From the IMG/VR virus record IMGVR_UViG_3300008050_000019: a DNA stretch of 64,000 nucleotides; one strand, given 5' to 3'. Source of the DNA: a virus. Positions within the stretch are counted from its first letter, which is position 1. Every line of letters begins with the position of its first letter. Below, in pieces: positions 1,963-45,031 of the stretch. A program made the position numbers and the translations under genes. The notes below the pieces were generated by a model. That model was not told where the DNA came from and ran no database searches. It worked only from the letters and a program-made list of their open reading frames with translations.

Positions 1963-2301
1963 CTATCTCTTCGAGACTAAGCGAAGGATCGCGTTTATTC
2001 CAGCTGTCATTTTTCTGACACCTGGTGGGTTATCTGAGTGTACTTTTATAATCGGTGGTATGAAATCGCTTGTTGCTACTTGCTCTTCTATCCATAAGAT
2101 AACGTCATTGCCCGTGCCATGCACATCATCTCCAAGATCATGATCAAGTGATACTTCACTTACTTTCTCAGTCTTTAATAACTGTATTACGTCTTCTGGC
2201 CAACGACAAAGCGTGTAACCAGGTGGGCATTTACGTTTATCATCAAGGAAAAGTTTCATATCAACCATGTATATGGTATTACGATATGAAACTTTAAACA
2301 C
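1963..2301 (-). CDS. cREC-like (cyclic-phosphate processing receiver) domain protein
   Basis: MKLFLDDKR...SLDHDLG...GTGNDV...KVHSDNPPG matches the remembered signature of the RNA-repair-associated receiver family. The likely true start is MKLFLDD at about 2256. Confidence 0.55.
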   Translation of the reverse strand: MFKVSYRNTIYMVDMKLFLDDKRKCPPGYTLCRWPEDVIQLLKTEKVSEVSLDHDLGDDVHGTGNDVILWIEEQVATSDFIPPIIKVHSDNPPGVRKMTAGINAILRLVSKR

Positions 2302-3822: not shown

Positions 3823-4125
3823 AAATTGGCGCCACATTTAAAGCGCCTGCATATAGAATAGAATCATGTAATATACTACCGGGCCTATATACTCCCGGCA
3901 GGTAACCTGTATATGGTAAACTTGACATTGCCACGATTTATTATATGGCGACTTCTAAATGTCATGTGTCAAGCTCATTACATGATAATGATAAAGCTAT
4001 GGCTTTAATGTTCTAAGTCAGCGCATAATATTAACCCTCGTATTAAACTAATTGATTCCTCACGCTCAATCAGACGTTCGGCGTGTCGCAACCACAACAG
4101 CTGGCTAAGTAGCGTACTAGCCATA

Positions 4126-4210: not shown

Positions 4211-4414
4211 TAATTTTCATTCAAGGTTATTTATTCCTTGTTAAAATATAATACCACCCTTTGAATTCAAAGATACTGTTATTTTTCATTAATTTAAATC
4301 AGTCAAGCTTTCTTAAACCAAGAAGCAGGAAATGGCATTCCCATACCCACTAAGCCATAATATACAGAACTGGCCTTGGTAGTTCAATCTTTATTATCTC
4401 ACCCATCTGTGTTC

Positions 4415-4720
4415 CTAAATGCTTTTATTCAAAGTAAATTCTGTCTGAGCAGGAAACACGATCGTTTTAATTCTGTAAGACTGATTCTTAAGTGTGTAGT
4501 TAACAACAGATAAACGGCCAGCAGACACTAATTCATTAACAAAGACAATCATTTTGTTTGCATCTAAGCCGCTAGGAAGAATAATATTTTCGTCATTCAA
4601 GTAATGTACTGAAGTGGATGCCAGCACTGTCAGTGTCATGGGTCCTTCTATGGTCACCTTATCAACCAAATAGTTTTTGAAATCGGCCTTTGTAAAAAAG
4701 GTACTCTTTTTTTTGTTCAC
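4415..4720 (-). CDS. hypothetical protein
   Basis: ORF track. The start abuts the 3' end of tRNA-Arg(CCT). Confidence 0.6.
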   Translation of the reverse strand: MNKKKSTFFTKADFKNYLVDKVTIEGPMTLTVLASTSVHYLNDENIILPSGLDANKMIVFVNELVSAGRLSVVNYTLKNQSYRIKTIVFPAQTEFTLNKSI

Positions 4721-4721
4721 A

Positions 4722-4795
4722 CGCCTCCTAGTGGACTCGAACCACCAACCTTAGGTTTAGGAAACCTACGCGCTATCCAATTGCGCCAAGGAGGC
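4722..4795 (-). tRNA. tRNA-Arg (anticodon CCT)
   Basis: Acceptor GCCTCCT/AGGAGGC, anticodon arm TAGGT-TTCCTAA-ACCTA, T arm GGTGG-TTCGAGT-CCACT. Confidence 0.9.
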
Positions 4796-4797
4796 AA

Positions 4798-4905
4798 TAT
4801 TCCAGCCCGGCTTTGAACCAGGATCTCTCTATTACGAGCGCTTTGACCGCTAAAAGATAAGCTAAGTAACCAAACTTCCGCCCATTCTTTTTTAAGCTAC
4901 TGGAT
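4798..4905 (-). other. tRNA-like element, unresolved (canonical T arm; possible degenerate, interrupted or pseudo tRNA)
   Basis: The T arm CCTGG-TTCAAAG-CCGGG is followed by CTGGAAT. The only 5' partner (AATCCAG, 1 mismatch) lies about 105 nt away. An internal hairpin AGCG-GTCAAAG-CGCT would give anticodon CAA. No standard cloverleaf could be folded by hand. Confidence 0.3.
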
Positions 4906-4911
4906 TACTGA

Positions 4912-4984
4912 TACGGCTGGGTGGAATTGAACCACCGACGTCCACCTTATAAGGATGGCGCTCTTACCCCTGAGCTACAGCCGT
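4912..4984 (-). tRNA. tRNA-Ile (anticodon TAT)
   Basis: Acceptor ACGGCTG/CAGCCGT, anticodon arm CCATC-CTTATAA-GGTGG, T arm GGTGG-TTCAATT-CCACC. Confidence 0.85.
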
Positions 4985-4989
4985 TTACT

Positions 4990-5382
4990 TTAAATGCTAT
5001 CTAAAACAGTTTGCATTTTATCTCGTACATCATCGAGCATTTCATCAATGGGGTCCATCTTCGCTCTAAGCTTATCATGCACCATCTCTTTAGCAGCTTC
5101 TTGTACATGGCGATCATAATCTCCAACCATCATGTCAACTATGTCAAGAAAGCGAAATGATTTCCCGTTAATAGTAAGCTCAACAGCAAAATTCCCGCCT
5201 TTCTCTTTTGCATCAAGAGCAACAGCTTCAACAATGCTTCTGTCTGCACTTATTAGGTTAAGAATTATTGTACCATACACGTTTTTGGAAGAACCTAGAA
5301 CGTCAATAGTACTAAAAGATTCTACACCATCTTTGTATGTAACATCAAAGGCTCTTTTAGTTTTACTTTTAATTTCTTCCAT
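4990..5382 (-). CDS. hypothetical protein
   Basis: ORF track, embedded between tRNA genes. Confidence 0.65.
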   Translation of the reverse strand: MEEIKSKTKRAFDVTYKDGVESFSTIDVLGSSKNVYGTIILNLISADRSIVEAVALDAKEKGGNFAVELTINGKSFRFLDIVDMMVGDYDRHVQEAAKEMVHDKLRAKMDPIDEMLDDVRDKMQTVLDSI

Positions 5383-6403: not shown

Positions 6404-6865
6404 ATGTTAAGTATAATTAGTAACATGATTATAGTCTGGGAAGTTATAACTGGTGAAAATCATAATATTTTCGCCAGGCAGGAAGATGCTATTTTATTAC
6501 ATGGTATAGTAAAGCATATGGTCACATCTAATGGAAAAGTTCCAGAGGGGTACCCTTTAAGTGTTAATGAAAAGCATATATTTGGTATAGAATCAATTGT
6601 GCTAATGACCAGTGTTGCAAGTGTTTTAGCAGATTGGATGATGAACATAAGCATTGATCAGATTGCTGTCGGGTTCGAGGATGCAGTCTGGCCCCCAGAT
6701 ACTCCTTATGCTGGATACCCAGTTTTCACAGATGCGGAAAAAACTAATATACAGATTGCACGTGCACAAAAAAAGCTGCTTTCATCAATTGATGAAAGTG
6801 AAAGACTTCTTTTATTCAATACAACATTAACGACTGCACAATTATTTGCAACTGGTAGTAATTAA
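6404..6865 (+). CDS. hypothetical protein (plus-strand island)
   Basis: ORF track. Its stop overlaps the start of 6865..8523 (ATG at 6865). Confidence 0.55.
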   Translation: MLSIISNMIIVWEVITGENHNIFARQEDAILLHGIVKHMVTSNGKVPEGYPLSVNEKHIFGIESIVLMTSVASVLADWMMNISIDQIAVGFEDAVWPPDTPYAGYPVFTDAEKTNIQIARAQKKLLSSIDESERLLLFNTTLTTAQLFATGSN

Positions 6866-8523
6866 TGGCAGCTATTGATTTTAATCTGCGATGTTTTCGA
6901 GGAAGCGGTGGCGTGCTCGATTATGATACCGCTTCAACTTCATTAATGACAGGTTCGGTCGTCAGTTGCTCAGTTGATATTTATAACCGCAACGGTTCAC
7001 TACTTGCAGGCCCATTTCACTCCATAAGTGGTTCCGTAACGAAGATTTCTGCAGGAGGAACAGACACTTGGACATTTGATCCCGCTCATGCAGACGTTAT
7101 TGCTTCTACTAGATTGTCACGCCAGTTCGACGAACACCTTAGGTTCCGATTCACTGAAACTGTTCCTAGTGCGTCGTCTGTTGCAGATGTATGGGTAACT
7201 GTTAACAATCAAGACAAAATAGCCAGCGATTATCCGAACAAAAAGTTATTTTGTGATGGTTTCTTCGGAGATAATAACGCAAGTTATGCTACTCCAGAAT
7301 TTGGTAATGCTTCAAAGCTCAACCCTACACGCCAAGTTCGTGAAATGAGTGCCATGGCACCAAGTATTGGATCAACCCATTATATGATTGTGAACCAGGT
7401 TTATGGTGTAAGAACAGATACATTCACAGGAGTAACATTCGAGGGTGATCCTCTAGGTGCAATTGTCGCACGGGGTGGAAACACGCTGTCGCTTGATAAC
7501 TGTTACTTTAAGAATATGGATCTTCGCGGATTTCTTGGAGGAACGTACGATGGAACGTTTACTGTTGATGGCGGAAAGTTACAGACGGGCTTTAAGCATG
7601 CAAATGGTGTTTTAACATGCGTCAATGAAGTTGGGCTTGAGGGAGATATTGACCTTCAATCAACTACAATAATGATTGGTGATGTTAAAGGGACCGCCGC
7701 TGTCATAGACTGCTCAGCACCTTTAACAGATCTTATTCTCGGTATCGATAAGGGTGATATTCAATTAGATAATTTGGATTCTGGCATGAATGTTTCTATA
7801 ACAGGTGTCGGTGGGACGTTAAAGCTTCCTGTCGGCAATGCAAATCCAGCCAGTGTTAAGGTGGGTGGGTATATTATCATAACAGATGACTCAGACGTTC
7901 CGTGGGATAATCAAAATAATATTGGCGGCTGCGAAATCACCGCTTCCGTTATTGCATCAAGAACGAACGTTTTGACAAATCTTCCTGCGCAACAAGGGCC
8001 AGGACAGTGGGACACTACAAGTTCGCTGACAACTTCAAGCATAGGAACAAGTGTTTGGAATTCGCTGACGTCCTCATTCAGTACATCTGGATCTGCAGGT
8101 GAAATTCTTATTAATAACTTTTTGCTTGCTGGTGAAACTGCGACGGCGATGTCAGGGACTGCTGCAGGTGTCTGGGATGCGTTAACATCATCATTTAATA
8201 TATCTGGATCTGCAGGTGATGCACTAATTAATAGCTATCTCTTTGCGTCAGGAACAGCAGAGGCATTGTCAGGTACGGCAGCTGATGTGTGGGCAGTTCA
8301 ATCATCATCACTTACCGTACCTGGTTCAACTGGTATGATGCTTACCAATATATCATCTTCTGTTAACTTTATCGAAGGGATAGAGGGCGGAAGGTGGAAG
8401 ATAATTAGTAACCAGATGATATTTTATGGTACTGACAATACGACTGAAATTGCTAGATTTAATCTACTTGATGACTTGGGAGCGCCAACTACAGCGTCGC
8501 CATTTGAAAGAGTAAGAACATAA
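6865..8523 (+). CDS. tail-fibre-like protein with three 39-aa C-terminal tandem repeats
   Basis: Three exact-period 117-nt repeats begin at 8053, 8170 and 8287 (VW..LTSSF..SGSAG..LIN..L.A.GTA.A.SGTAA). The fibre-like call is an impression, not a motif match. Confidence 0.45.
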   Translation: MAAIDFNLRCFRGSGGVLDYDTASTSLMTGSVVSCSVDIYNRNGSLLAGPFHSISGSVTKISAGGTDTWTFDPAHADVIASTRLSRQFDEHLRFRFTETVPSASSVADVWVTVNNQDKIASDYPNKKLFCDGFFGDNNASYATPEFGNASKLNPTRQVREMSAMAPSIGSTHYMIVNQVYGVRTDTFTGVTFEGDPLGAIVARGGNTLSLDNCYFKNMDLRGFLGGTYDGTFTVDGGKLQTGFKHANGVLTCVNEVGLEGDIDLQSTTIMIGDVKGTAAVIDCSAPLTDLILGIDKGDIQLDNLDSGMNVSITGVGGTLKLPVGNANPASVKVGGYIIITDDSDVPWDNQNNIGGCEITASVIASRTNVLTNLPAQQGPGQWDTTSSLTTSSIGTSVWNSLTSSFSTSGSAGEILINNFLLAGETATAMSGTAAGVWDALTSSFNISGSAGDALINSYLFASGTAEALSGTAADVWAVQSSSLTVPGSTGMMLTNISSSVNFIEGIEGGRWKIISNQMIFYGTDNTTEIARFNLLDDLGAPTTASPFERVRT

Positions 8524-12829: not shown

Positions 12830-14218
12830 TTACCAAAGATCTTCTGAAAATAAATTTGGCGGGTGAGCCAGACTAAAAATCTGCTTTCCTGCGAGAGCTA
12901 TAATACCTGCCTCTTTACGATCTACGTACGTGCCACCGACTGTAACGAATCCTTGTCTTGGGCCGTGTAGTCTAGTCGTGTCTATACCCTTAGCATGCAT
13001 ATAATGGAGAATATTATGATGCCTGTTAGGCTGCGGAAGTGACCATACTTTTCCCGTCTCGTCTTTCACAGCAGCTTGCTTAATCATTGCAGCGCCCAAT
13101 AAGAGACGGAGCGCGGGCAGCTTTATATCATATTCAATTACTTTACGACGAATGTCTGCACCCACCTTATCTCCTGTAAAATGTGCCATTAACAATGGAA
13201 ACAGCTTCGGTTGTGCATAACTCTTCAGCGTATTAGCTAACTCTCCGCGTGTCCATGTATTATCATATAACACAGAAAAATCTGCAAGTGCATTGTCAAT
13301 GAGTGCCTTGTTTTCTTTGCGCATCTTGCAAATTGCGCTAAATGTTGGCTCGATGAAGTCAACGACTTCCCAATCATGTCCTGCAGCATACATATATGCA
13401 CTTAGCTTCTCTAAAGTGTCGATTTTATGTATTATGCAAAGTTCTTTGATATATTTTGGTGTTGCCTTCGAACGAAGATGGTGAAGTCTCATATACCATG
13501 AGCTTTTGAACTTCATCAATGTTACAGTACCAGCGGGACCTATCGCCCAGCCTACGACACCCTCAGAGTCATCAAATTCTCTGACGTCAGATTTTATCTT
13601 TTGAAGATCACCAGATAGTGTCTCATTGATTACAGGCGTTTTAATACCTGCATCACGAAAAAGCTCATCGCATAACCGAACTTCAAGAGCATCTCCATCC
13701 CATTTTACGCGAGCAAGACCCACGAGATCATGTTCATTGTACTTTATAATAATTCTATTTGAAGGTCCGACATACTCAAAAAGCATTGAACCCTCAGAAG
13801 ACCATGATGGGTCAAGAAGTAAAGGATACTTGGCAAGCACTTTTTCAACGCCCTTAGAAACATTCTCAGCCAGCACTTCACAGCCCCGTGTTCTAAAGTT
13901 GACGAGGCCGTCGATTACTGAGCGGATTATTAATGATCCGTCAAGCTTCTCTGGCAATATAACATTACCTGCAGCATGATAAGTATCAAACTCTTTATCA
14001 AGAGTAGGCCTTTCAGTGTAGTTGAAAAACTTTGGAAACCCAGAGGAAAGTATCGTTCCATCAGGGCGAGTCATGACAGAACGAAGGTGATATTCGTCTG
14101 GACCCCATTCGTGCATCACCTTATGTGGAACAATTACAACAACATCACCGATACCAGGAATGTGGCGGTTGTTTGTATAAAATCTTGACGTATCAATATT
14201 TGGTATATTTATCTTCAT
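12830..14218 (-). CDS. Rnl1-like RNA ligase with about 130-aa C-terminal extension
   Basis: Nucleotidyltransferase motif I EKLDGSL, motif IV EGVVGW, motif V MKFKSSWY. The track start (TTG at 14251) lies inside a hairpin, so ATG 14218 (MKINIP) is preferred. Confidence 0.6.
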   Translation of the reverse strand: MKINIPNIDTSRFYTNNRHIPGIGDVVVIVPHKVMHEWGPDEYHLRSVMTRPDGTILSSGFPKFFNYTERPTLDKEFDTYHAAGNVILPEKLDGSLIIRSVIDGLVNFRTRGCEVLAENVSKGVEKVLAKYPLLLDPSWSSEGSMLFEYVGPSNRIIIKYNEHDLVGLARVKWDGDALEVRLCDELFRDAGIKTPVINETLSGDLQKIKSDVREFDDSEGVVGWAIGPAGTVTLMKFKSSWYMRLHHLRSKATPKYIKELCIIHKIDTLEKLSAYMYAAGHDWEVVDFIEPTFSAICKMRKENKALIDNALADFSVLYDNTWTRGELANTLKSYAQPKLFPLLMAHFTGDKVGADIRRKVIEYDIKLPALRLLLGAAMIKQAAVKDETGKVWSLPQPNRHHNILHYMHAKGIDTTRLHGPRQGFVTVGGTYVDRKEAGIIALAGKQIFSLAHPPNLFSEDLW

Positions 14219-14253
14219 CGTTGGACCGAGTATTATTATAACTCGGTCCAACG
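14219..14253 (-). promoter_or_regulatory. 13-bp GC-rich stem-loop abutting the RNA ligase start codon
   Basis: CGTTGGACCGAGT / ACTCGGTCCAACG with a 9-nt loop and no U-tract. It lies between the stop at 14270 and the ATG at 14218. Confidence 0.45.
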
Positions 14254-18910: not shown

Positions 18911-20902
18911 TTATGCTGCTTTTGCAGCGTCCTTTAATAGAATGTAATCCACCCAGTCTGTGATAGTACCCTCATTTACTTCACCAAAACACTTCATCAA
19001 AAGAGGGTAATCCGCAGAAAGCAAAGCTAGATAATCTTCATGTTCTGTTGGGTACACAATACCTTTACATTGTGATAAAAGATATTGAAAATTTGTCCAT
19101 TTCCATGAGATGCCTTTTGTCGCTGCATTTAGATACCTTGATAATATGTGTTCAGCAGGAAGTATAGATTTTGTACTTTTTAACAAAAGTGATGTTGCGT
19201 TTGTGTATCTCCAAGTGCTACTAATACGGTGGTTTTTCCAAGCGATATTTCTAAGTTCATCGATCACTAAAGGGTGCTTTTGTATTTCTTCATAGAAGGT
19301 AGCTCGCCATGCCGAATATGATATACCCTTTACGGTTCCAGGCTTTACCGGCGATTTTTCTGTAGATTTGTACCCGTAAATTTTTGGAAAATCAATGCCA
19401 AGTTTAGCTGCAACTTTCTTGTCTTTATCAATAATATCAAGATAATTTTTCATTTCATGGGGCACAAATCTACACAAAAGAAAGTATACGTCAGTATCTG
19501 CTTGTAGCGACACCCTGGGTATCCAGTTTTCTGATTGCAACGAGTAAACAGCTTGGGGCATAAGACGAAATGCCCTATGCCCATGTTTTGAGTTTGGTAC
19601 TTTCTTTGGTACATCTTTACCAGTCCAAGGTAAAGATGAAATTCTACTAATTGGTATACCTTCGCATCCTTGCTCTGCAACCAGAGATTCCAATTCAGCA
19701 AAAACATCATCTGCCGTGCATCCTGTTGCAGGTCGTAACGTAACAGCACCTGATGGTATCATGTACCCTTTAAGTGCTTTTCTTGTATCAATAATAATGA
19801 TCTGCGTTTGTTTTTTAGGAGGAAGTAGTGCTCTTTTTCCGTTAAAAGTTTTTGCTCTTTTGCATATAAAACTCTTCGGCTTAAAATTAAAGGGCAGTTT
19901 AATTCCAGCATTGCAAAACTTATAATAGAATATTTTCTTCTCCCAAGATGAACATTGAGAATTTTTAACTTTATGTAGTTTTGCTAGTAAATCTGTATAA
20001 AGGGTTGAAATTGTTTTCTTTAGTGCCGCCCTTGTTCTTGGAGTGTATTTTAACTCTTCTCTGTTTGCCGTGAAGTCCACTTCACCTATGTCAAAGAAAA
20101 ACCTGAATCTTGAGTACCAGCCGAAATCATAGTCATTGGTATTCATCACACTAGTAATTTCTTCTGATGAAACTTTGTATGAAATACCTCCCATAACTGC
20201 TTCATTATTGTTGGCCCGGCGTAAAAGTTCTGCTTTTGTACCCTTGAAAGTCACATCATCTAATCTATCAGATATAACGTCAGGGAGATTAAATTTAACG
20301 TTTGCGCTCATGTACTTAAATACATGTCCTGCTTTCAAAAGGAAGGCTCTGTGATCAGCTTGCTTTACAGGAATTGCAATCTCGACGCCTGTTATACCTA
20401 TATCACACTCATCTTCGTATAGCAAGCATAAAATGCCTTCATCTAATTCATCTAATGCAGCATTATATACACGCTTCATACCTTTGTGCCATGAAGTTAT
20501 GTTAAATGATGATGTATAAGAGAATGCAGCTTTTGACCCAATTCCAAGTGTACCAACTTGTTCATTAGTATCACGTTTAGTAGAAGAGCCATAACTAACG
20601 TAAACTCGTATACCTTCCTCTGATAGGCCGGGGCCGTTATCCCGTATCTTTAGAGTCGGTGTTAGTGCGGTTGGTAAGTTAACTTTAATGGGTATGTCTT
20701 CATTACCCGCTTCAGCATTTGCATCCCTAGCGTTAGCCCCATATTCACGTAACACCGCCAATATATTATCTGTATATAACTGATCTCTCATGATACGCAT
20801 CAAGTGTGCGTTATCACCGGCCTTATTAGAAATCTCGAAGCGTATTTCATCGCCGATACCAGTTGTCGTTAATGTTCTGTTTTCTAAATTAACTTTTGCC
20901 AT
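18911..20902 (-). CDS. rIIA: rIIA-like protein (GHKL/Bergerat ATPase fold N-terminus)
   Basis: LYTDNILAVLREYGANARDA...IRDNGPGLS...GTLGIGSKAAFSYTSSFNITSWHKG parallels the remembered T4 rIIA N-terminal region. Confidence 0.85.
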   Translation of the reverse strand: MAKVNLENRTLTTTGIGDEIRFEISNKAGDNAHLMRIMRDQLYTDNILAVLREYGANARDANAEAGNEDIPIKVNLPTALTPTLKIRDNGPGLSEEGIRVYVSYGSSTKRDTNEQVGTLGIGSKAAFSYTSSFNITSWHKGMKRVYNAALDELDEGILCLLYEDECDIGITGVEIAIPVKQADHRAFLLKAGHVFKYMSANVKFNLPDVISDRLDDVTFKGTKAELLRRANNNEAVMGGISYKVSSEEITSVMNTNDYDFGWYSRFRFFFDIGEVDFTANREELKYTPRTRAALKKTISTLYTDLLAKLHKVKNSQCSSWEKKIFYYKFCNAGIKLPFNFKPKSFICKRAKTFNGKRALLPPKKQTQIIIIDTRKALKGYMIPSGAVTLRPATGCTADDVFAELESLVAEQGCEGIPISRISSLPWTGKDVPKKVPNSKHGHRAFRLMPQAVYSLQSENWIPRVSLQADTDVYFLLCRFVPHEMKNYLDIIDKDKKVAAKLGIDFPKIYGYKSTEKSPVKPGTVKGISYSAWRATFYEEIQKHPLVIDELRNIAWKNHRISSTWRYTNATSLLLKSTKSILPAEHILSRYLNAATKGISWKWTNFQYLLSQCKGIVYPTEHEDYLALLSADYPLLMKCFGEVNEGTITDWVDYILLKDAAKAA

Positions 20903-20908
20903 ATTTCA

Positions 20909-20980
20909 TATGATCAGAGGGACTCGAACCCTCAACATACCAGCCTGTAGTGCTGGGCTCTACCATTGAGCTATGATCAC
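20909..20980 (-). tRNA. tRNA-Val (anticodon TAC), non-canonical details
   Basis: Acceptor GTGATCA/TGATCAT, anticodon arm CCAGC-ACTACAG-GCTGG, T arm GAGGG-TTCGAGT-CCCTC. C rather than U at position 33 and no clear nt 26 in the hand fold. Confidence 0.7.
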
Positions 20981-34866: not shown

Positions 34867-36171
34867 TTACTCCGTTACTTCATTGTCTTCAGCAGTTTCG
34901 GTTGCCGGTTCAGCATCACCGTCAGTAAGAAGGTGCTTTTTTGCTAGGTCTGCGATGCCGGGCATCTTTTCCCCGATCTTTGTCGTAGCCAACATCCGCA
35001 TAAAGTGTGGACCGGCTTCAGGGTAGAAAACCTTGGCGTTGTTAAGGCTCGAGTTAATGATGCCGTTGAATAGTACAAAGCTAATTTCATCAGGTAATGT
35101 CTTCATTACGAATGCAAGGTTCTTTGCTTGCGGAACCGTTAGAGCGAGATCATCTTTCTCAACGTAAGCATTAAGCTTGTCTACAAGCGAAACAGACTCT
35201 TCTGGACGCAGTGCCTTAATTCTCTTCTCAGCGCGGTGCGCATCCTTAAGTAGCTCCTCAGGAGTGAGGATTGCATCTTGTTGCTCCATGAATTGGCTAA
35301 ATGCTCGAGCTGGAGTCGCACCGACGAAGCCCTTCATTACAGCATAAATAATATCCGGTTGTTGATCGATAAGACGACCTAGATTTCCGCGATTACGGAT
35401 AAGATGGTCACTTACCTTATGCCAGGAACGACGAGATGGTGTAATTTCCGTAGCATCCATCTGGGCCGCTTTTTCTGGTTTAACTTCAAAATGGCCTTCA
35501 TTACACTGCGAAATAAAGTCAATGACTTCATTACAAACCCACTGATTTCCGTACATCTCTCTTTGCTCATCGGTCATCCCTTCAGATGAGCGGCCCCAGT
35601 CCGTCCAATCTTTGAGATCAGGTTCAAGATCTGCAACCCAGAACCGATCGATGAATGCAGGATCCATCTGCGTAACATTATACTCCTTAGAGAAATTTAC
35701 AGCTGCGATGATCCGTGTTCCTTCATGGACCGTACGCCCATTTAGGCGGCCTTTCTCAACAAGCTCGAATGCAGCATTCTGCACTTCAGGTGTGCCACGG
35801 TTAATTTCATCAAGAAATAGTACGCAAGGCCGAAGTTGAGCCTCGAGAAACCAGTCAGGTGGAAGAAATTTCGTAACACGAAACCCACCAAGCTCCTCGT
35901 CATACTCAGACATCATCATTTGTTCGGACGTTAGGCCATCCTTAGGTGACTTTACCGCACCCCTGTCAGGAAGACCAATAATATCACCCTCGCTTAGCTG
36001 CGATACACGGCGTTCAATAACCGGAAGATTACCCCAAACCCGCGCCATTTGATAAGCAATTGCTGATTTACCGATTCCATGGGCCCCACGAATAAGTGCC
36101 GATTGGCGAGTGTCAAGAAATTTAAGTGCGTCAACCAGTCCACGGACTGTATAAGAAGATACTGCTGCCAT
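34867..36171 (-). CDS. MoxR/AAA_5-type AAA+ ATPase
   Basis: Walker A GAHGIGKSA, Walker B plus MoxR-type VLFLDEINRGTPEVQNAAFELV. Confidence 0.85.
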   Translation of the reverse strand: MAAVSSYTVRGLVDALKFLDTRQSALIRGAHGIGKSAIAYQMARVWGNLPVIERRVSQLSEGDIIGLPDRGAVKSPKDGLTSEQMMMSEYDEELGGFRVTKFLPPDWFLEAQLRPCVLFLDEINRGTPEVQNAAFELVEKGRLNGRTVHEGTRIIAAVNFSKEYNVTQMDPAFIDRFWVADLEPDLKDWTDWGRSSEGMTDEQREMYGNQWVCNEVIDFISQCNEGHFEVKPEKAAQMDATEITPSRRSWHKVSDHLIRNRGNLGRLIDQQPDIIYAVMKGFVGATPARAFSQFMEQQDAILTPEELLKDAHRAEKRIKALRPEESVSLVDKLNAYVEKDDLALTVPQAKNLAFVMKTLPDEISFVLFNGIINSSLNNAKVFYPEAGPHFMRMLATTKIGEKMPGIADLAKKHLLTDGDAEPATETAEDNEVTE

Positions 36172-36980: not shown

Positions 36981-37155
36981 CTTTCTTTTTCTCGTCTTTA
37001 TTTTTGTTTTCTGGCCAATAACCTTTCTCTTTAAGAACTGACACGCTAAACTTTACTGTTTCAGTTGCTGCGTCTAACGCGACCTTTACAACAAAAGTCT
37101 CTGCTGCCTTTACAGCAAGCTTTTTTGCTAAATCGCCGAAAATAACATTAAGCAC
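36970..37155 (-). CDS. hypothetical protein
   Basis: ORF track. Its start overlaps the sigma gene stop by 8 nt. Confidence 0.45.
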   Translation of the reverse strand: MLNVIFGDLAKKLAVKAAETFVVKVALDAATETVKFSVSVLKEKGYWPENKNKDEKKKDEK

Positions 37156-37999
37156 ATGAAGCCTTCATCTTCTCTAACTCTTTAGAGGAGATTGGAAACT
37201 TTTTATGATCTTTTGGATTTTCCGTTAAACCAAATCTCATTCTAAGTATCTTTTCTTCTCTAGGGTTTAGTGAGTTTAAAACCCCAGATAAGAGAGCAGT
37301 AAGTTCTTTTTTATTAATTAAATCAAGTGGGGATTCTGAGTCGACGTCTTCTATTACATCTTTTAATGTTCTTGAGTCAGCGCCATCTGAGCCAATGGGC
37401 TTATCAATAGATACCAGCAAAGGAATACCTGAAATTGCTGATTGGACTGTCGTTTCAGTCACCCCTATTATCGATGCAAGCTCGGCGCAGGTAGGTTCTT
37501 GTGCATGCAGTTCAATGAATTCATCACGTGCCAATTGTATTCGAACGTAAACGTCAGTAACCCTACCAGAGGTCTTTATCTGCTTACTTTGTGATGCAAC
37601 TTCGCGCCCGATATTTTGGCGAATCCACCAAGTTGCATATGTTGAGAATCTAAACCCTTTTCTCCAATCAAATAACTCAGTAGCTCTGATTAAACCAATA
37701 TTGCCTGCTGCGATTAAGTCATCAAGACTGCAGCCTCTATTTTGGAACCTTTTTGCTATCGAGACAACTAAGCGTAAGTTAGATTCTATCATCTTATTCT
37801 TAGCTCTTGATTTCTCACTTTTGCTAATTGCTTTTGAAGATTCTATTCTTATTTCGCCATCAGGCTCTCTTGTATATTTAACATCCTCAAAGCCCTCAAT
37901 TTTTTGAGAAAGAATAATTTCTTGTTCTTTTGTAAGCAAAGGTCTTTTACCAATCTGTTTAAGATAAAATCCTACGCCACCACTATCTTGTTTAGCCAC
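37148..37999 (-). CDS. sigma-70 family RNA polymerase sigma factor (region 4.2 apparently missing)
   Basis: Region 2 NLRLVVSIAKRF...DLIAAGNIGLIRATELFDWRKGFRFSTYATWWIRQ and region 4.1 EKILRMRFGL are present. The sequence ends 25 aa later without the TRERIRQIE-type recognition helix. Confidence 0.85.
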   Translation of the reverse strand: MAKQDSGGVGFYLKQIGKRPLLTKEQEIILSQKIEGFEDVKYTREPDGEIRIESSKAISKSEKSRAKNKMIESNLRLVVSIAKRFQNRGCSLDDLIAAGNIGLIRATELFDWRKGFRFSTYATWWIRQNIGREVASQSKQIKTSGRVTDVYVRIQLARDEFIELHAQEPTCAELASIIGVTETTVQSAISGIPLLVSIDKPIGSDGADSRTLKDVIEDVDSESPLDLINKKELTALLSGVLNSLNPREEKILRMRFGLTENPKDHKKFPISSKELEKMKASCA

Positions 38000-39442: not shown

Positions 39443-39680
39443 CGCCTTTTTTTGCCTTTTTTAAGAAAAGAATATCTTCTCGTGATATTTTTTCTATTCT
39501 ATTATCTACATAGACGTTGCAGAAGGGTCCATGAGCCCATACATCATAACGTCTATGAAATGTCATGTTTGTTTTACCAGAATTAAAACCCTCTTGTAAC
39601 GAGAGAATTATTCCTATTTTATTTAATGATGATATCACAATAAGATCACCAATTTCATATAAAGTTTTATCTACACACAT
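39429..39680 (-). CDS. GDL-family small protein
   Basis: YEIGDLIVIS motif. Confidence 0.55.
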   Translation of the reverse strand: MCVDKTLYEIGDLIVISSLNKIGIILSLQEGFNSGKTNMTFHRRYDVWAHGPFCNVYVDNRIEKISREDILFLKKAKKGDGKK

Positions 39681-41532
39681 TTGAAAAAATTCCCCTTAGA
39701 ATGTTTGTGTATCGGGACGCATTTAGAGGATATAGTTCTATCAATCTTGCCACATCATTAAAGACTATAGAATCCCATTGCAGAAAGAACTGTGTTTGTG
39801 TTATTATATACATTTCGTATGCATCCCCTGGTGTGCATATACCTACACCACAGTTGCTCGTATTTAGCGCTACATCACTTTCATTGAACCCAGCAACTGT
39901 CTGGGCTGCTTCGTCTGTAATAAGAATGATGTAAGGGTATGCCCCTGTTGATGTTACAGTAGATTCTCTCCAATTGATAAGTGCTGGATTTGTGCTGTTC
40001 GCTAAATCATGAACTACATCGTATGAAGGCTCTACACCTGGATATGATGCGGTAAGATTGTTCAATGCTGCAGAAAATACAGTAAAATCAACGAGATTTA
40101 CTAGTACATTATAATTATCTCTTCTACCAGGAAATACAACTAAACCAAACCTATGTTCTGTCCCTTGAAAGTCTGCAACATAATTACTTATCCCTGCTTG
40201 CAGAGCGAACATAGCTTGTGTCATTGAACCTGAGCCATCTATCACAAAAATTATATCTACCTTATCATGTGGTGTAAGATCCTCATCGATGAGCCCATCA
40301 CAGTCATTGTCAACCCCATCACAAGATTCTTGCTCAGGATAAACTGGTCCAATGCAGCTTGACCAAATGCCTGAAGTGCATGTTCTCTCGCCTAAAACGC
40401 ATTGTCCGATACCAGCCGTAGCAGGATCTCCGCATGCGTCTGTTAACTCATCGATTGTGCCGTCGCAATCATCATCCCAGTTATTACACACTTCGGGCTC
40501 GGTAGCAAAAGAATAACATGTACCCCATACACCATTAGAATCGCATATTGAAATGCCGGTACCGCAATTGATAAGCTCTCCCGTAGCGTGATCTAAGACA
40601 TTTTGTCGGCATACTCTAGCGTCACCGACTGTACATGCACAATCTTCATCGATTATCCCATCACAGTCATTATCAAAACCATCACATATTTCTCGTACTG
40701 GTTTTCTAGCATTACACCCTATCCAGTTGCCCACGTTGCAACTTTCTATACCACTTTCACATGAGGTTCTGCATAACCTCTCAAGCCCTTCATCAATTGC
40801 ACCATTACAGTCATTATCAAAACCATCGCAAATTTCAGGCGAAGGGTGTACAGCACCAACGCAATATGTTTCTTCTGATGTACATATTTGAGTGCCAAGT
40901 TGACACAAACCAACTTCACTTGACGGGCCGCATGAATCTAAAATTTCTTCGTCAGTAATACCATCACAATTATTATCAAAACCATCGCAAGTTTCTGGTG
41001 TCGGCAAAATAACGCCTGTACATTGTCCCCACACACCATGAGTACACCTTTGTTTTCCAGTTCTGCAAACGCTAGGGCTAATATAACTGTCGACAGCTGG
41101 ACCAGTCCAGCAATCCCGTGAATAATTGTCAATTACACCATTACAGTCATTATCAAAACCATCGCAGATTTCTATCCCGCCTGGGTTTATTTCGGCTATA
41201 TTGTCGTTACAATCGTTATCACAAGAGTTGTAGCCATCACCATCACCATCATGTCCTTCGTCAACTAAACCATCGCAGTCATTGTCCAAACCATCACAGA
41301 TTTCATTAACTTGTCCGATGAACCCTTCACAAAATGCCATTTCATTTTTAGCATCGCATGAAGTAATCCCCTTTTGGCAAGTGCCAATAGAATCTTTAAG
41401 ATTATCTGTTATTATTTTTCCGTTATTTATTATACACGGGCGTGGGGACTGACATACTCTCGATAAGTTATCATCTTCACATGCAGCAATAAAAAGCAGG
41501 GAGATAGATAAAAGTATATATTTCAACTTCAT
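39667..41532 (-). CDS. secreted lipoprotein with 7-8 MopE-type CDGxDNDCDGxxDE modules and a C-terminal VWA domain
   Basis: Signal peptide plus lipobox LLFIAAC. Modules CDGLDNDCDGLVDE, CDGFDNDCNGVIDN, CDGFDNNCDGITDE and others. VWA MIDAS VIDGSGSM. Confidence 0.8.
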   Translation of the reverse strand: MKLKYILLSISLLFIAACEDDNLSRVCQSPRPCIINNGKIITDNLKDSIGTCQKGITSCDAKNEMAFCEGFIGQVNEICDGLDNDCDGLVDEGHDGDGDGYNSCDNDCNDNIAEINPGGIEICDGFDNDCNGVIDNYSRDCWTGPAVDSYISPSVCRTGKQRCTHGVWGQCTGVILPTPETCDGFDNNCDGITDEEILDSCGPSSEVGLCQLGTQICTSEETYCVGAVHPSPEICDGFDNDCNGAIDEGLERLCRTSCESGIESCNVGNWIGCNARKPVREICDGFDNDCDGIIDEDCACTVGDARVCRQNVLDHATGELINCGTGISICDSNGVWGTCYSFATEPEVCNNWDDDCDGTIDELTDACGDPATAGIGQCVLGERTCTSGIWSSCIGPVYPEQESCDGVDNDCDGLIDEDLTPHDKVDIIFVIDGSGSMTQAMFALQAGISNYVADFQGTEHRFGLVVFPGRRDNYNVLVNLVDFTVFSAALNNLTASYPGVEPSYDVVHDLANSTNPALINWRESTVTSTGAYPYIILITDEAAQTVAGFNESDVALNTSNCGVGICTPGDAYEMYIITQTQFFLQWDSIVFNDVARLIELYPLNASRYTNILRGIFSNVCR

Positions 41533-43212: not shown

Positions 43213-45031
<1,819 letters not shown>

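What the first reader, a model, noticed from the sequence alone, without database searches (positions are those of the whole stretch)
4796..4911. 115-nt gap between two tRNAs holds a canonical T arm but no foldable cloverleaf
Minus-strand CCTGG-TTCAAAG-CCGGG followed by CTGGAAT-A looks like a genuine tRNA 3' half, ending 2 nt before the next tRNA. The only matching 5' acceptor strand (AATCCAG, one mismatch) is about 105 nt upstream. An internal AGCG-GTCAAAG-CGCT hairpin would give anticodon CAA (Leu, type II). The D-arm region, however, does not fold. The element could be an interrupted (intron-containing) tRNA, a highly unusual tRNA, a tRNA-derived regulatory RNA or a decayed pseudogene.
Basis: seen in the sequence. 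Interest (0 to 1): 0.5.

Follow-up and report, generated by a model that had tools for sequence, protein, structure and literature searches.

The report
tRNA-like element in phage tRNA operon
Between two tRNA genes of an uncultured marine jumbo phage lies a ~109-nt tRNA-derived element. It keeps the tRNA's acceptor stem and T arm, but a long hairpin replaces its core. It resembles phage T4's 'species 1' RNA, whose function is unknown, and is neither a working nor an interrupted tRNA.

Summary
On the minus strand at 4798-4906 there is a canonical T arm (CCTGG-TTCAAAG-CCGGG). A 7-nt strand follows it and pairs 6/7 with AATCCAG at the 5' end of the gap. The unit sits 5 nt after tRNA-Ile(tat) and 2 nt before tRNA-Arg(cct).

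The T-arm motif occurs 7 times in the window: the six tRNAs plus this element (0.63 expected by chance).

It is not a tRNA. ARAGORN (default, intron and relaxed modes) and every Rfam model (E<=10) fail to call it. Calls for an 'interrupted tRNA-Leu(CAA)' appear only after artificial deletions, and shuffled controls produce them just as often.

The predicted fold is an acceptor helix, a long hairpin (where a tRNA's D arm would be), a weakly structured linker and the T arm. Phage T4 species 1 RNA (rnaC) has the same layout, and I show that the rnaC layout is supported by covariation. However, an rnaC covariance model matches only the T arm here, so the element is not a sequence member of that family.

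No homologue of the element was found in any collection searched, so function cannot be separated from decay. Similar orphan T arms occur in 5 of 7 other phage tRNA-array regions surveyed.

Verdict: a real, tRNA-derived, non-decoding tRNA-like element. It is a new member of a known but poorly understood kind, of modest interest.

The parts
4907..4911 (-). 5-nt spacer (TCAGT) between the end of tRNA-Ile(tat) and the element. Its last base is U at position -1.
4900..4906 (-). 5' acceptor-like strand, AATCCAG
   Evidence: Pairs 6/7 with 4799-4805 (A.A at 2:71). Pair probabilities are 0.87-1.0 for five pairs. It is the only >=6/7 Watson-Crick partner inside the gap.
4898..4899 (-). UA dinucleotide, in the position of tRNA residues 8-9
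   Evidence: sequence
4849..4897 (-). Long imperfect hairpin occupying the D-arm position. Its core is 4852-4891 and its apical loop is UUGGUU.
   Evidence: MFE and partition function give core pair probabilities of 0.8-0.99. Stability is only at the 8th percentile of 49-nt genome windows. No covariation test is possible.
4837..4851 (-). It competes with the base of the long hairpin.
   Evidence: Pair probabilities are 0.09-0.20. It is not supported as an anticodon arm.
4823..4836 (-). Linker with no stable stem, in the position of a variable region. It holds the 3' arm of a weak alternative CUC/GAG hairpin whose 5' arm (4836-4838) overlaps the AGCG/CGCU hairpin.
   Evidence: CUC/GAG pair probabilities 0.53-0.57
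4806..4822 (-). Canonical T arm, CCUGG-UUCAAAG-CCGGG. G53, U54, U55, C56, A58 and C61 are all present; there is one U.G pair.
4799..4805 (-). 3' acceptor-like strand, CTGGAAT
4798..4798 (-). Discriminator-position A. No CCA is encoded, as for the five tRNAs of this cluster.
4796..4797 (-). 2-nt spacer (UU) before G+1 of tRNA-Arg(cct)
4912..4984 (-). Upstream neighbour tRNA-Ile(tat), in the same transcription unit
   Evidence: 67.3 bits
4722..4795 (-). Downstream neighbour tRNA-Arg(cct)
   Evidence: 65.2 bits
5509..5538 (-). Promoter-like site GTGACA-18-TGnTATAAT (11/12) upstream of tRNA-Met. It is the likely start of the operon that contains the element.
   Evidence: a consensus match only

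Best explanation
The element is a tRNA-derived, non-decoding, tRNA-like RNA gene of about 109 nt. It is embedded in the phage's tRNA operon: tRNA-Met, ORF, tRNA-Ile, element, tRNA-Arg, and so on.

Only the acceptor-stem/T-arm 'minihelix' half of a tRNA survives. The D-arm and anticodon-arm core is replaced by a long imperfect hairpin and a weakly structured linker.

Shown here: the motif content, the pairing, the position, the failure of all tRNA models and the predicted fold.

Inferred from established tRNA biochemistry (my own knowledge): the acceptor/T-arm stack is the part recognised by RNase P, the 3'-trimming exonucleases, the CCA-adding enzyme, and TrmA and TruB. The element should therefore be cut out of the polycistronic transcript like its neighbours. 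RNase P would cut after U(-1) at 4907/4906. RNase P cleavage at tRNA-Arg would leave a 2-nt trailer, which would be trimmed, and CCA would be added. The product would be a discrete, tRNA-mimicking small RNA that cannot decode.

In layout and genomic setting this is the same kind of molecule as phage T4 species 1 RNA (rnaC). I consider it most likely a stable tRNA mimic of that type. Its downstream role is unknown. The speculative options are a decoy or partner for tRNA-binding enzymes, or simple punctuation of the transcript.
For: - The T-arm motif is found only at the six tRNAs and here.
- The acceptor helix and T arm have pair probabilities near 1.
- The unit is placed exactly, 5 nt after one tRNA and 2 nt before the next, on the same strand, downstream of a strong promoter-like site.
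- No ORF lies in the gap.
- No tRNA, tmRNA or other Rfam model fits.
- The long-hairpin fold is 12 kcal/mol better than a cloverleaf-type fold.
- T4 rnaC has the same parts in the same order: a 7-bp acceptor-like helix with mismatches, a long hairpin, a second hairpin and a canonical T arm. That layout is backed by 19 of 46 pairs with compensatory changes across five Tevenvirinae.
- In Klebsiella phage KaAlpha, rnaC fills a 148-nt gap between tRNA-Trp and tRNA-Gly.
- The T arm is flawless and the acceptor stem is 6/7 paired, while the core is unrecognisable. Uniform neutral decay would not be expected to give this.
Against: - No homologue of the element exists in any collection searched, so neither conservation nor covariation can be shown.
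- All six contigs that carry it are 100% identical over the parts they share.
- The fold is not exceptionally stable: z = -1.3, and the 7th-8th percentile of genome windows. T4 rnaC has z = -4.6.
- The acceptor stem has an A.A mismatch and the T stem a U.G pair.
- There are no expression data.
- Degenerate T-arm elements are common in phage tRNA arrays. This would also fit frequent gene death.
Confidence: 0.5

Rival explanations
1. It is an inert relic: a tRNA gene destroyed by an internal insertion or rearrangement (a pseudogene or recombination scar). It is still transcribed as operon spacer. Its RNA has no function and is degraded; at most it separates the two flanking tRNAs.
For: - The element has no detectable homologue.
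- Internal structure is no better than the 8th percentile of genome windows.
- There are mismatches in the acceptor stem and T stem.
- Orphan T arms that neither ARAGORN nor Rfam calls are frequent in other phage tRNA arrays: 7 in about 59 kb against about 0.17 expected. Their lengths range from 76 to 129 nt, which looks like a continuum of tRNA decay.
Against: - The T arm matches every conserved position and the acceptor strands still pair 6/7, although about 77 nt between them bear no trace of the D or anticodon arms.
- The spacing to both neighbours is like that of a real tRNA gene.
- T4 rnaC shows that this architecture can be conserved and functional.
- With an intact minihelix, the RNA would still be processed like a tRNA.
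Confidence: 0.36
2. It is a real decoding tRNA of unusual form. One version is a type II tRNA-Leu(CAA), or a suppressor, with a ~27-nt intervening sequence between the D and anticodon arms that is removed by cleavage and the phage's own RNA ligase. The other version is a tRNA with a giant D arm.
For: - The GUCAAAG loop has U33 and A37 in the right places.
- Deleting 26-27 nt at gap positions 34-61 makes ARAGORN call an 84-85-nt tRNA-Leu(caa) at default stringency.
- The phage encodes a T4 Rnl1-like RNA ligase and a cREC cyclic-phosphate-processing domain protein.
Against: - The deletion-scan result is at chance level: 66 of 120 shuffled cores give at least one call, and 27 of 120 give at least 21.
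- The best models keep a D stem with non-canonical pairs, a D loop without G18-G19, an unstructured 13-nt 'variable arm', and G32/G38.
- Rfam tRNA and tRNA-Sec models give nothing at E<=10.
- An intron at position 26-29 and of this size is not a known bacterial or phage tRNA intron type (my own knowledge).
- The AGCG/CGCU hairpin has a pairing probability of <=0.2.
Confidence: 0.06
3. It is a cis-acting processing or regulatory module. A tRNA-like decoy site inside the precursor sets the order or efficiency of RNase P and RNase E cleavage, and so the yield of tRNA-Ile(tat) and tRNA-Arg(cct).
For: The minihelix sits within 2-5 nt of both neighbours. Most spacers seen in the phage tRNA arrays surveyed are only 1-10 nt, so 115 nt is an unusual investment.
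Against: There is no direct evidence. Neighbouring tRNAs in other arrays mature without such modules. This rival is not clearly distinguishable from the main explanation without experiments.
Confidence: 0.05
4. It is a chance resemblance: an ordinary intergenic spacer that happens to contain a T-arm-like hairpin.
For: Folding energy alone is not significant.
Against: The motif expectation is 0.63 per window, and this match sits between two tRNAs, on their strand, in tRNA register, with a matching acceptor strand at the far end of the gap.
Confidence: 0.02

Closest known systems
Phage T4 species 1 RNA (rnaC / RNAC) and its Tevenvirinae homologues
   Same: - It lies in a phage tRNA cluster, on the tRNA strand, abutting tRNAs.
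- It has no ORF.
- It has a canonical T arm followed by a 7-nt strand that pairs, with internal mismatches, with the 5' end.
- A long hairpin occupies the D-arm position.
- No CCA is encoded.
- ARAGORN does not call it and it has no Rfam family.
- Its function is still unknown (PMC3014915, PMC9697503, PMC12685909).
   Different: - There is no sequence relationship. The rnaC covariance model matches only the T arm (6.1 bits, E 0.7), and the non-T-arm part aligns no better than 43% of shuffles.
- rnaC is 137-139 nt and has a well-formed second hairpin with an invariant CGUCAA loop. Here the second hairpin is weak.
- rnaC folds far better than chance (z -4.6, against -1.3 here) and has covariation support. 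This element has neither.
Degenerate or pseudo-tRNAs and orphan T-arm elements in phage tRNA arrays
   Same: Each has a canonical T arm plus acceptor pairing next to real tRNAs, and tRNA finders reject it. I found seven such elements in five of seven surveyed phage array regions. One example is a 90-nt acceptor + long hairpin + T-arm element in Pseudoalteromonas phage XG4 (L029 9794-9883).
   Different: Three of the six orphans with a matching acceptor strand are 76-83 nt and close to a cloverleaf. At 109 nt this element is far too long, and its core has no cloverleaf remnant. There is no sequence similarity to any of them.
Type II tRNA-Leu(CAA)
   Same: It shares discriminator A73, a 7-nt loop reading GUCAAAG (U33, CAA, A37), and 13-14 nt between that hairpin and the T arm.
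   Different: It has no D arm, no G18-G19 and no variable-arm stem. About 27 extra nt lie before the 'anticodon' stem. All tRNA models fail, and the interrupted-tRNA reading is at chance level.
tRNA-like domains of other non-coding RNAs: the tmRNA tRNA-like domain, bacterial and phage Y RNA (YrlA), and RNase-P-processed mimics such as mascRNA
   Same: These use an acceptor/T-arm mimic to engage tRNA enzymes while carrying a non-tRNA body (my own knowledge; PMC4201824 for Y RNAs).
   Different: - No match to tmRNA, YrlA or mascRNA models. The only hit is tmRNA_permuted at 9.3 bits and E 7.6, which is noise.
- ARAGORN tmRNA mode is negative.
- No ORF or tag is present.
- In YrlA the RNA ends lie in the Ro-binding stem, not in the acceptor mimic (my own knowledge).
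- No Ro60/TROVE protein was seen among the ORFs scanned.

Membership tests
Canonical tRNA (Rfam RF00005 / ARAGORN) | A cloverleaf with a D arm, an anticodon arm with a 7-nt loop, and a T arm, at 70-95 nt, scoring above model thresholds | tested here: not met
   ARAGORN default, -i, -ps and -i -ps find nothing. Rfam finds no tRNA hit in the gap even at E<=10. The element is 109 nt, and a cloverleaf-type fold is 12 kcal/mol worse than the MFE.
Canonical tRNA (Rfam RF00005 / ARAGORN) | A canonical T arm plus a 7-bp acceptor stem and a discriminator base | tested here: met
   CCUGG-UUCAAAG-CCGGG, with acceptor pairing of 6/7 and A73.
Intron-containing (interrupted) tRNA | Removing one internal segment restores a tRNA that scores better than chance. 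For bacteria and phages, the intron is a group I intron of >200 nt in the anticodon loop. | tested here: not met
   The whole element is 109 nt. The deletion scan gives 21 calls in 2530 variants. Shuffled cores give at least 1 call in 66 of 120 and at least 21 calls in 27 of 120.
T4 species 1 RNA (rnaC) family | Lies in a phage tRNA cluster, co-oriented with and abutting tRNAs, and non-coding | tested here: met
   rnaC context.
T4 species 1 RNA (rnaC) family | Architecture: an acceptor-like helix with mismatches, a long hairpin, a second hairpin and a canonical T arm | tested here: inconclusive
   The acceptor helix, long hairpin and T arm are predicted. The second hairpin is weak (p<=0.2, or 0.5 for an alternative). 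With one sequence only, no covariation test is possible.
T4 species 1 RNA (rnaC) family | Conserved sequence blocks (5' CGRTTCGAGGA, the TAGCGTCAACTA loop, 3' CGTTYCGTACAA) and a match to a family covariance model | tested here: not met
   Model R1, built from five homologues, matches only the T arm: 6.1 bits, E 0.7, like ordinary tRNA T arms. The local alignment score is no better than 428 of 1000 shuffles.
T4 species 1 RNA (rnaC) family | Accumulates as a stable, discrete small RNA during infection | not testable with these tools
   The phage is uncultured and no expression data are available here.
tmRNA | A tRNA-like domain with a G.U alanine identity pair, plus a tag ORF and pseudoknots | tested here: not met
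   ARAGORN -m finds none. Rfam gives only tmRNA_permuted at 9.3 bits against a gathering score of 47. The 3:70 pair is U-A.
Bacterial/phage Y RNA (YrlA) with Ro60 | A match to the YrlA model and a nearby Ro60/TROVE gene | tested here: not met
   No Rfam hit at E<=10. No TROVE domain was seen in the 30 ORFs scanned with Pfam. The rest of the ~308-kb genome was not available.
tRNA-Sec | An 8/5 or 9/4 acceptor/T arrangement, a long D stem, a long variable arm and a UCA anticodon, matching RF01852 | tested here: not met
   No RF01852 hit at E<=10.

The most novel reading that the evidence does not exclude
The element is a trans-acting tRNA mimic made by the phage's tRNA operon. One possibility is that a CCA-tailed acceptor/T-arm minihelix on a non-decoding body works as a decoy or inhibitor for host defence enzymes that target tRNA, such as anticodon nucleases and toxins that modify the acceptor end. 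The other is that it is the RNA partner of the phage's own RNA-repair or RNP machinery; an Rnl1-like ligase, a cREC protein and a vault-protein-like / MoxR / vWA gene set are all in the same window. On this reading, T4 RNAC and the orphan T-arm elements in other phage arrays would be members of one widespread, unrecognised functional class.
Probability: 0.1. Interest if true: 0.75.

Novelty: new member of a known kind. Interest (0 to 1): 0.3.

Why it matters
Phage tRNA arrays are normally annotated only for what tRNA finders accept. This case, T4 rnaC, and the seven orphan T arms in five of seven other arrays surveyed show that such arrays regularly carry tRNA-shaped RNAs that cannot decode.

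The function of T4 species 1 RNA has been unknown for about fifty years. If these elements are a common class of tRNA mimics, they would bear on how phages interact with host tRNA-processing and tRNA-targeting defence enzymes. If they are only relics, they record fast birth and death of phage tRNA genes.

This single, homologue-less example in an uncultured phage cannot decide between the two.

Tried and rejected
1. **Normal tRNA misfolded by hand.** Rejected.

2. **tRNA with an intron.** ARAGORN -i finds nothing except a forced low-stringency call. The exhaustive deletion scan looked positive, but shuffled controls show it is chance.

3. **Insertion flanked by the 7-nt direct repeat TAGCTTA.** Removing 35 nt leaves 74 nt, but by inspection this forms no cloverleaf, and such a repeat is expected by chance in 115 nt. 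This deletion was not among the ARAGORN-positive variants.

4. **L006 as a natural variant with a different 5' end.** Rejected. Its first 61 nt belong to a scaffold-like CDS of another phage (L019), joined at a shared 17-mer. It is a chimeric contig.

5. **Searches for homologues.** All failed:
   - megablast and blastn against GenBank phages;
   - IMG/VR patterns for the element and for both flanking tRNAs (the six hits are CDS chance matches);
   - flanking proteins, which find only themselves;
   - an 80% relative of the 552-aa ORF, which exists but whose loci carry no tRNAs and share only two genes with the window;
   - a GTDB genome scan for the T arm plus acceptor strand, which hit only a CDS.

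6. **Sequence membership in the T4 rnaC family.** Rejected. The TAGCG(G)TCAA resemblance to the invariant rnaC loop is not significant.

7. **tmRNA, Y RNA, tRNA-Sec.** No model hits.

8. **Small ORF in the gap.** None.

Full report
**Observation**

- a T arm, CCTGG-TTCAAAG-CCGGG (4822-4806);
- the strand CTGGAAT (4805-4799), the discriminator-position A (4798), and two U before the next tRNA;
- at the other end of the gap, 5 nt after tRNA-Ile, AATCCAG (4906-4900), which pairs with CTGGAAT except for an A.A at position 2:71;
- an AGCG-GTCAAAG-CGCT hairpin at 4851-4837.

The T-arm motif GGTTCRANNCC occurs seven times in the 64-kb window, always on the minus strand: the six tRNAs and this site. 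Shuffles give 0.63 on average. AATCCAG is the only >=6/7 Watson-Crick partner inside the gap. No ORF of 20 aa or more lies in the gap.

**It is not a tRNA**

- ARAGORN finds nothing in the gap in default, intron, relaxed, or intron + relaxed modes. Only at -i -ps80 does it force a 'tRNA-Stop(tta) with a 24-nt intron', which has a D stem and anticodon stem containing non-canonical pairs.
- Rfam cmscan of 4700-5000 at E<=10 reports the two flanking tRNAs. In the gap it reports no tRNA, tRNA-Sec, tmRNA or Y RNA. The only hit is a 9.3-bit, E = 7.6 match to tmRNA_permuted, which is noise.

**The interrupted-tRNA idea was tested exhaustively**

I deleted every internal segment of 5-59 nt, giving 2530 variants, and ran ARAGORN at default stringency. 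There were 21 calls, including an 84-85-nt tRNA-Leu(caa) after removal of 26-27 nt.

This looks like support until it is controlled. I kept the acceptor strands and the T arm and shuffled the inner 75 nt, preserving dinucleotides. At least one call appeared in 66 of 120 shuffles, and at least 21 calls in 27 of 120. Any sequence that carries a good minihelix yields such 'tRNAs', so the reading has no support.

**Fold**

The MFE and partition function give four parts:
- the acceptor helix (five pairs at p 0.87-1.0);
- the T arm (p 0.96-1.0 for four of five stem pairs, 0.54 for the outermost);
- a long imperfect hairpin with its core at 4852-4891 (p 0.8-0.99), capped by a UUGGUU loop;
- a weakly structured 26-nt stretch.

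A cloverleaf-style fold scores -16.8 against -29.2 kcal/mol.

Stability is unremarkable: z = -1.3 against shuffles, and the 7th-8th percentile of equal-length windows of this genome. Only the acceptor helix and the T arm are therefore firmly supported. The long hairpin is a prediction.

**Context**

- All tRNAs and ORFs from 5538 down to about 1960 are on the minus strand.
- A strong promoter-like site, GTGACA-18-TGnTATAAT, lies just upstream of tRNA-Met.
- None of the five tRNAs in the cluster encodes CCA.
- The window belongs to an uncultured jumbo phage. An identical region is found on a 308,593-bp ENA contig and in JGI and Logan assemblies.
- The window encodes rIIA, DNA ligase, GroEL, a sigma-70-family factor, a T4 Rnl1-like RNA ligase and a cREC domain protein.
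- Its best matches among cultured phages are only 35-39% identical over half of rIIA.

**No comparators**

- The element and its flanks have no near or distant DNA match in GenBank phages.
- IMG/VR holds neither the element nor either flanking tRNA. A looser two-anchor pattern hit only coding sequences.
- The flanking ORFs have no homologues other than themselves among 5.8 billion proteins.
- An 80%-identical relative of the 552-aa ORF exists, but its loci share only two genes with the window and carry no tRNAs.
- A scan of 185,579 species genomes for the T arm plus acceptor strand found one coding-sequence chance hit. The element is therefore not a recent copy of a known bacterial tRNA.
- All six contigs that carry the element are 100% identical over the parts they share.
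- One of them, L006, seemed to have a different 5' end. Those 61 nt come from a scaffold-like gene of another phage (L019), joined at a shared 17-mer, so L006 is a chimera.

Conservation and covariation therefore cannot be assessed.

**Closest known**

Phage T4 encodes two small stable RNAs of unknown function in its tRNA region (PMC3014915, PMC9697503, PMC12685909). The record annotates rnaC (species 1 RNA) at 70908-71046, next to tRNA-Arg and rnaD.

Read in the same way, rnaC has the same parts in the same order:
- a 7-bp acceptor-like helix with two U.U mismatches;
- two unpaired bases;
- a long hairpin;
- a second hairpin;
- a canonical T arm, CCGGG-UUCGAAU-CCCGG;
- the 3' strand and a discriminator.

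ARAGORN does not call it, and it has no Rfam family; its best hit is tRNA-Sec at 17.5 bits, below threshold.

I collected divergent homologues from four other Tevenvirinae. In the five-sequence alignment, 19 of 46 predicted pairs show compensatory changes, including pairs in the acceptor helix and the T stem. In Klebsiella phage KaAlpha the homologue fills a 148-nt gap between tRNA-Trp and tRNA-Gly, which is the same situation as here.

This is a resemblance in design, not membership. A covariance model of the family matches only the T arm of our element (6.1 bits, E 0.7), just as it does for ordinary tRNAs. The rest of the element aligns to rnaC no better than 43% of shuffles.

**How common are such things**

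I scanned seven phage tRNA-array regions (about 59 kb) for canonical T arms that ARAGORN does not assign to a tRNA. There were seven, in five of the seven regions, against about 0.17 expected. None of the six that lie in the regions scanned with Rfam reaches the tRNA gathering score.

For six of the seven a matching acceptor strand gives a unit of 76 to 129 nt. They range from near-cloverleaves to an acceptor + long hairpin + T-arm element in a marine Pseudoalteromonas phage, L029 9794-9883. The element studied here belongs to a recurrent but largely unannotated population of tRNA-shaped non-tRNAs in phage arrays.

**Mechanism**

Shown: the element is tRNA-derived, it retains only the minihelix half, and it sits in tRNA register inside a tRNA operon.

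Inferred from textbook tRNA biochemistry (my own knowledge, not tested here): the acceptor/T-arm coaxial stack is the main determinant for RNase P, 3' trimming, CCA addition, and TrmA and TruB. U at -1 is a favoured RNase P context. The transcript should therefore be cut into a discrete RNA of about 109 nt (+CCA) that mimics a tRNA but cannot decode.

- I put 0.5 on this RNA being a stable T4-RNAC-type tRNA mimic.
- I put 0.36 on it being an inert relic. The intact T arm against an unrecognisable core, and the T4 precedent, argue against this. The weak fold statistics, the mismatches, the absence of homologues and the abundance of degenerate elements argue for it.
- I put 0.06 on an unusual or interrupted decoding tRNA.
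- I put 0.05 on a purely cis-acting processing module.
- I put 0.02 on chance.

**Novelty and score**

This is a new member of a known kind: tRNA-like or degenerate tRNA elements in phage tRNA clusters, with T4 species 1 RNA as the archetype. A specialist would not be surprised. A single homologue-less copy in an uncultured phage does not make the old question of what RNAC does more testable.

Interest is 0.3. The most novel reading not excluded is a trans-acting tRNA decoy or RNP partner, as part of a widespread class. I give it about 0.1 probability.

Noticed in passing
window 30704-33280 (-), with 33433-34866 (-), 34867-36171 (-) and 39667-41532 (-): An 858-aa ORF matches the Pfam major-vault-protein domains MVP_shoulder (3.8e-19) and Vault_3 (2.5e-8). 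Beside it are a DUF2201 metallopeptidase/VWA-like protein and a MoxR-type AAA_5 ATPase. Further on is a protein with MopE repeats and a weak, sub-threshold VWA match. A vault-protein-like / MoxR / vWA gene set in a jumbo phage is unusual.
   Followed up: no
window 1963-2301 (-) and 12830-14251 (-); L032 5995-6339; L030 3849-4973: A cREC_REC (cyclic-phosphate-processing receiver) gene lies 1.4 kb from the tRNA cluster, and a T4 Rnl1-like RNA ligase lies 9 kb away. In Morganella phage vB_Mm5 a cREC gene sits inside the tRNA array. In Microcystis phage Mel-JY01 an RNA ligase abuts tRNA-Leu. RNA-repair genes and tRNA arrays appear to be linked repeatedly.
   Followed up: partly
L027 1724-1740 and 6636-6652; L028 1377-1393; L029 7473-7489 and 9859-9875; L015 553-569; L031 7636-7652: Seven canonical T arms in other phages' tRNA arrays are not called as tRNAs by ARAGORN, against about 0.17 expected. 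Rfam also rejects the six that were scanned. Six have matching acceptor strands giving units of 76-129 nt. One (L029 9794-9883) folds as acceptor helix + long hairpin + T arm.
   Followed up: partly
L007 1909-2047 (T4 rnaC); L015-L018: T4 species 1 RNA has a tRNA-like four-helix layout, with 19 of 46 pairs showing compensatory changes across five Tevenvirinae. It has no Rfam family. In several GenBank records its homologues are unannotated or overlapped by 'hypothetical protein' or 'tRNA-Lys' features. Enterobacter phage IME523 has a second orphan T-arm unit directly after its rnaC homologue.
   Followed up: partly
L006 1-78 versus L019 and window 4880-4896: The ENA contig k141_535100 is a chimera. 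Its first 61 nt come from a scaffold-like gene of another phage (Ga0255047_10084446), joined to this phage at a shared 17-mer, CTTAAAAAAGAATGGGC. The gene caller then produced a false 79-aa ORF that runs through the element and tRNA-Arg.
   Followed up: yes
window 3824-4125 (-) and 4211-4414 (-): Two further non-coding gaps of 302 and 204 nt lie inside the tRNA cluster, with no ORF of >=50 aa. The 302-nt gap folds slightly better than shuffles (z -1.65, 2 of 100). The other does not. Neither contains a T arm.
   Followed up: partly
window 6404-8523 (+) versus L008-L014: The 153-aa and 552-aa ORFs have relatives of 51-85% amino-acid identity in another uncultured phage lineage found in the same and other marine samples. 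The surrounding genes are entirely different and there are no tRNAs, a sharp mosaic boundary next to the tRNA cluster.
   Followed up: partly
window 37148-37999 (-), 43213-44874 (-), 18911-20902 (-), 20909-20980 (-): The window encodes a sigma-70-family factor, a GroEL chaperonin and an rIIA homologue. A lone tRNA-Val(tac) lies 6 nt upstream of the rIIA start.
   Followed up: no
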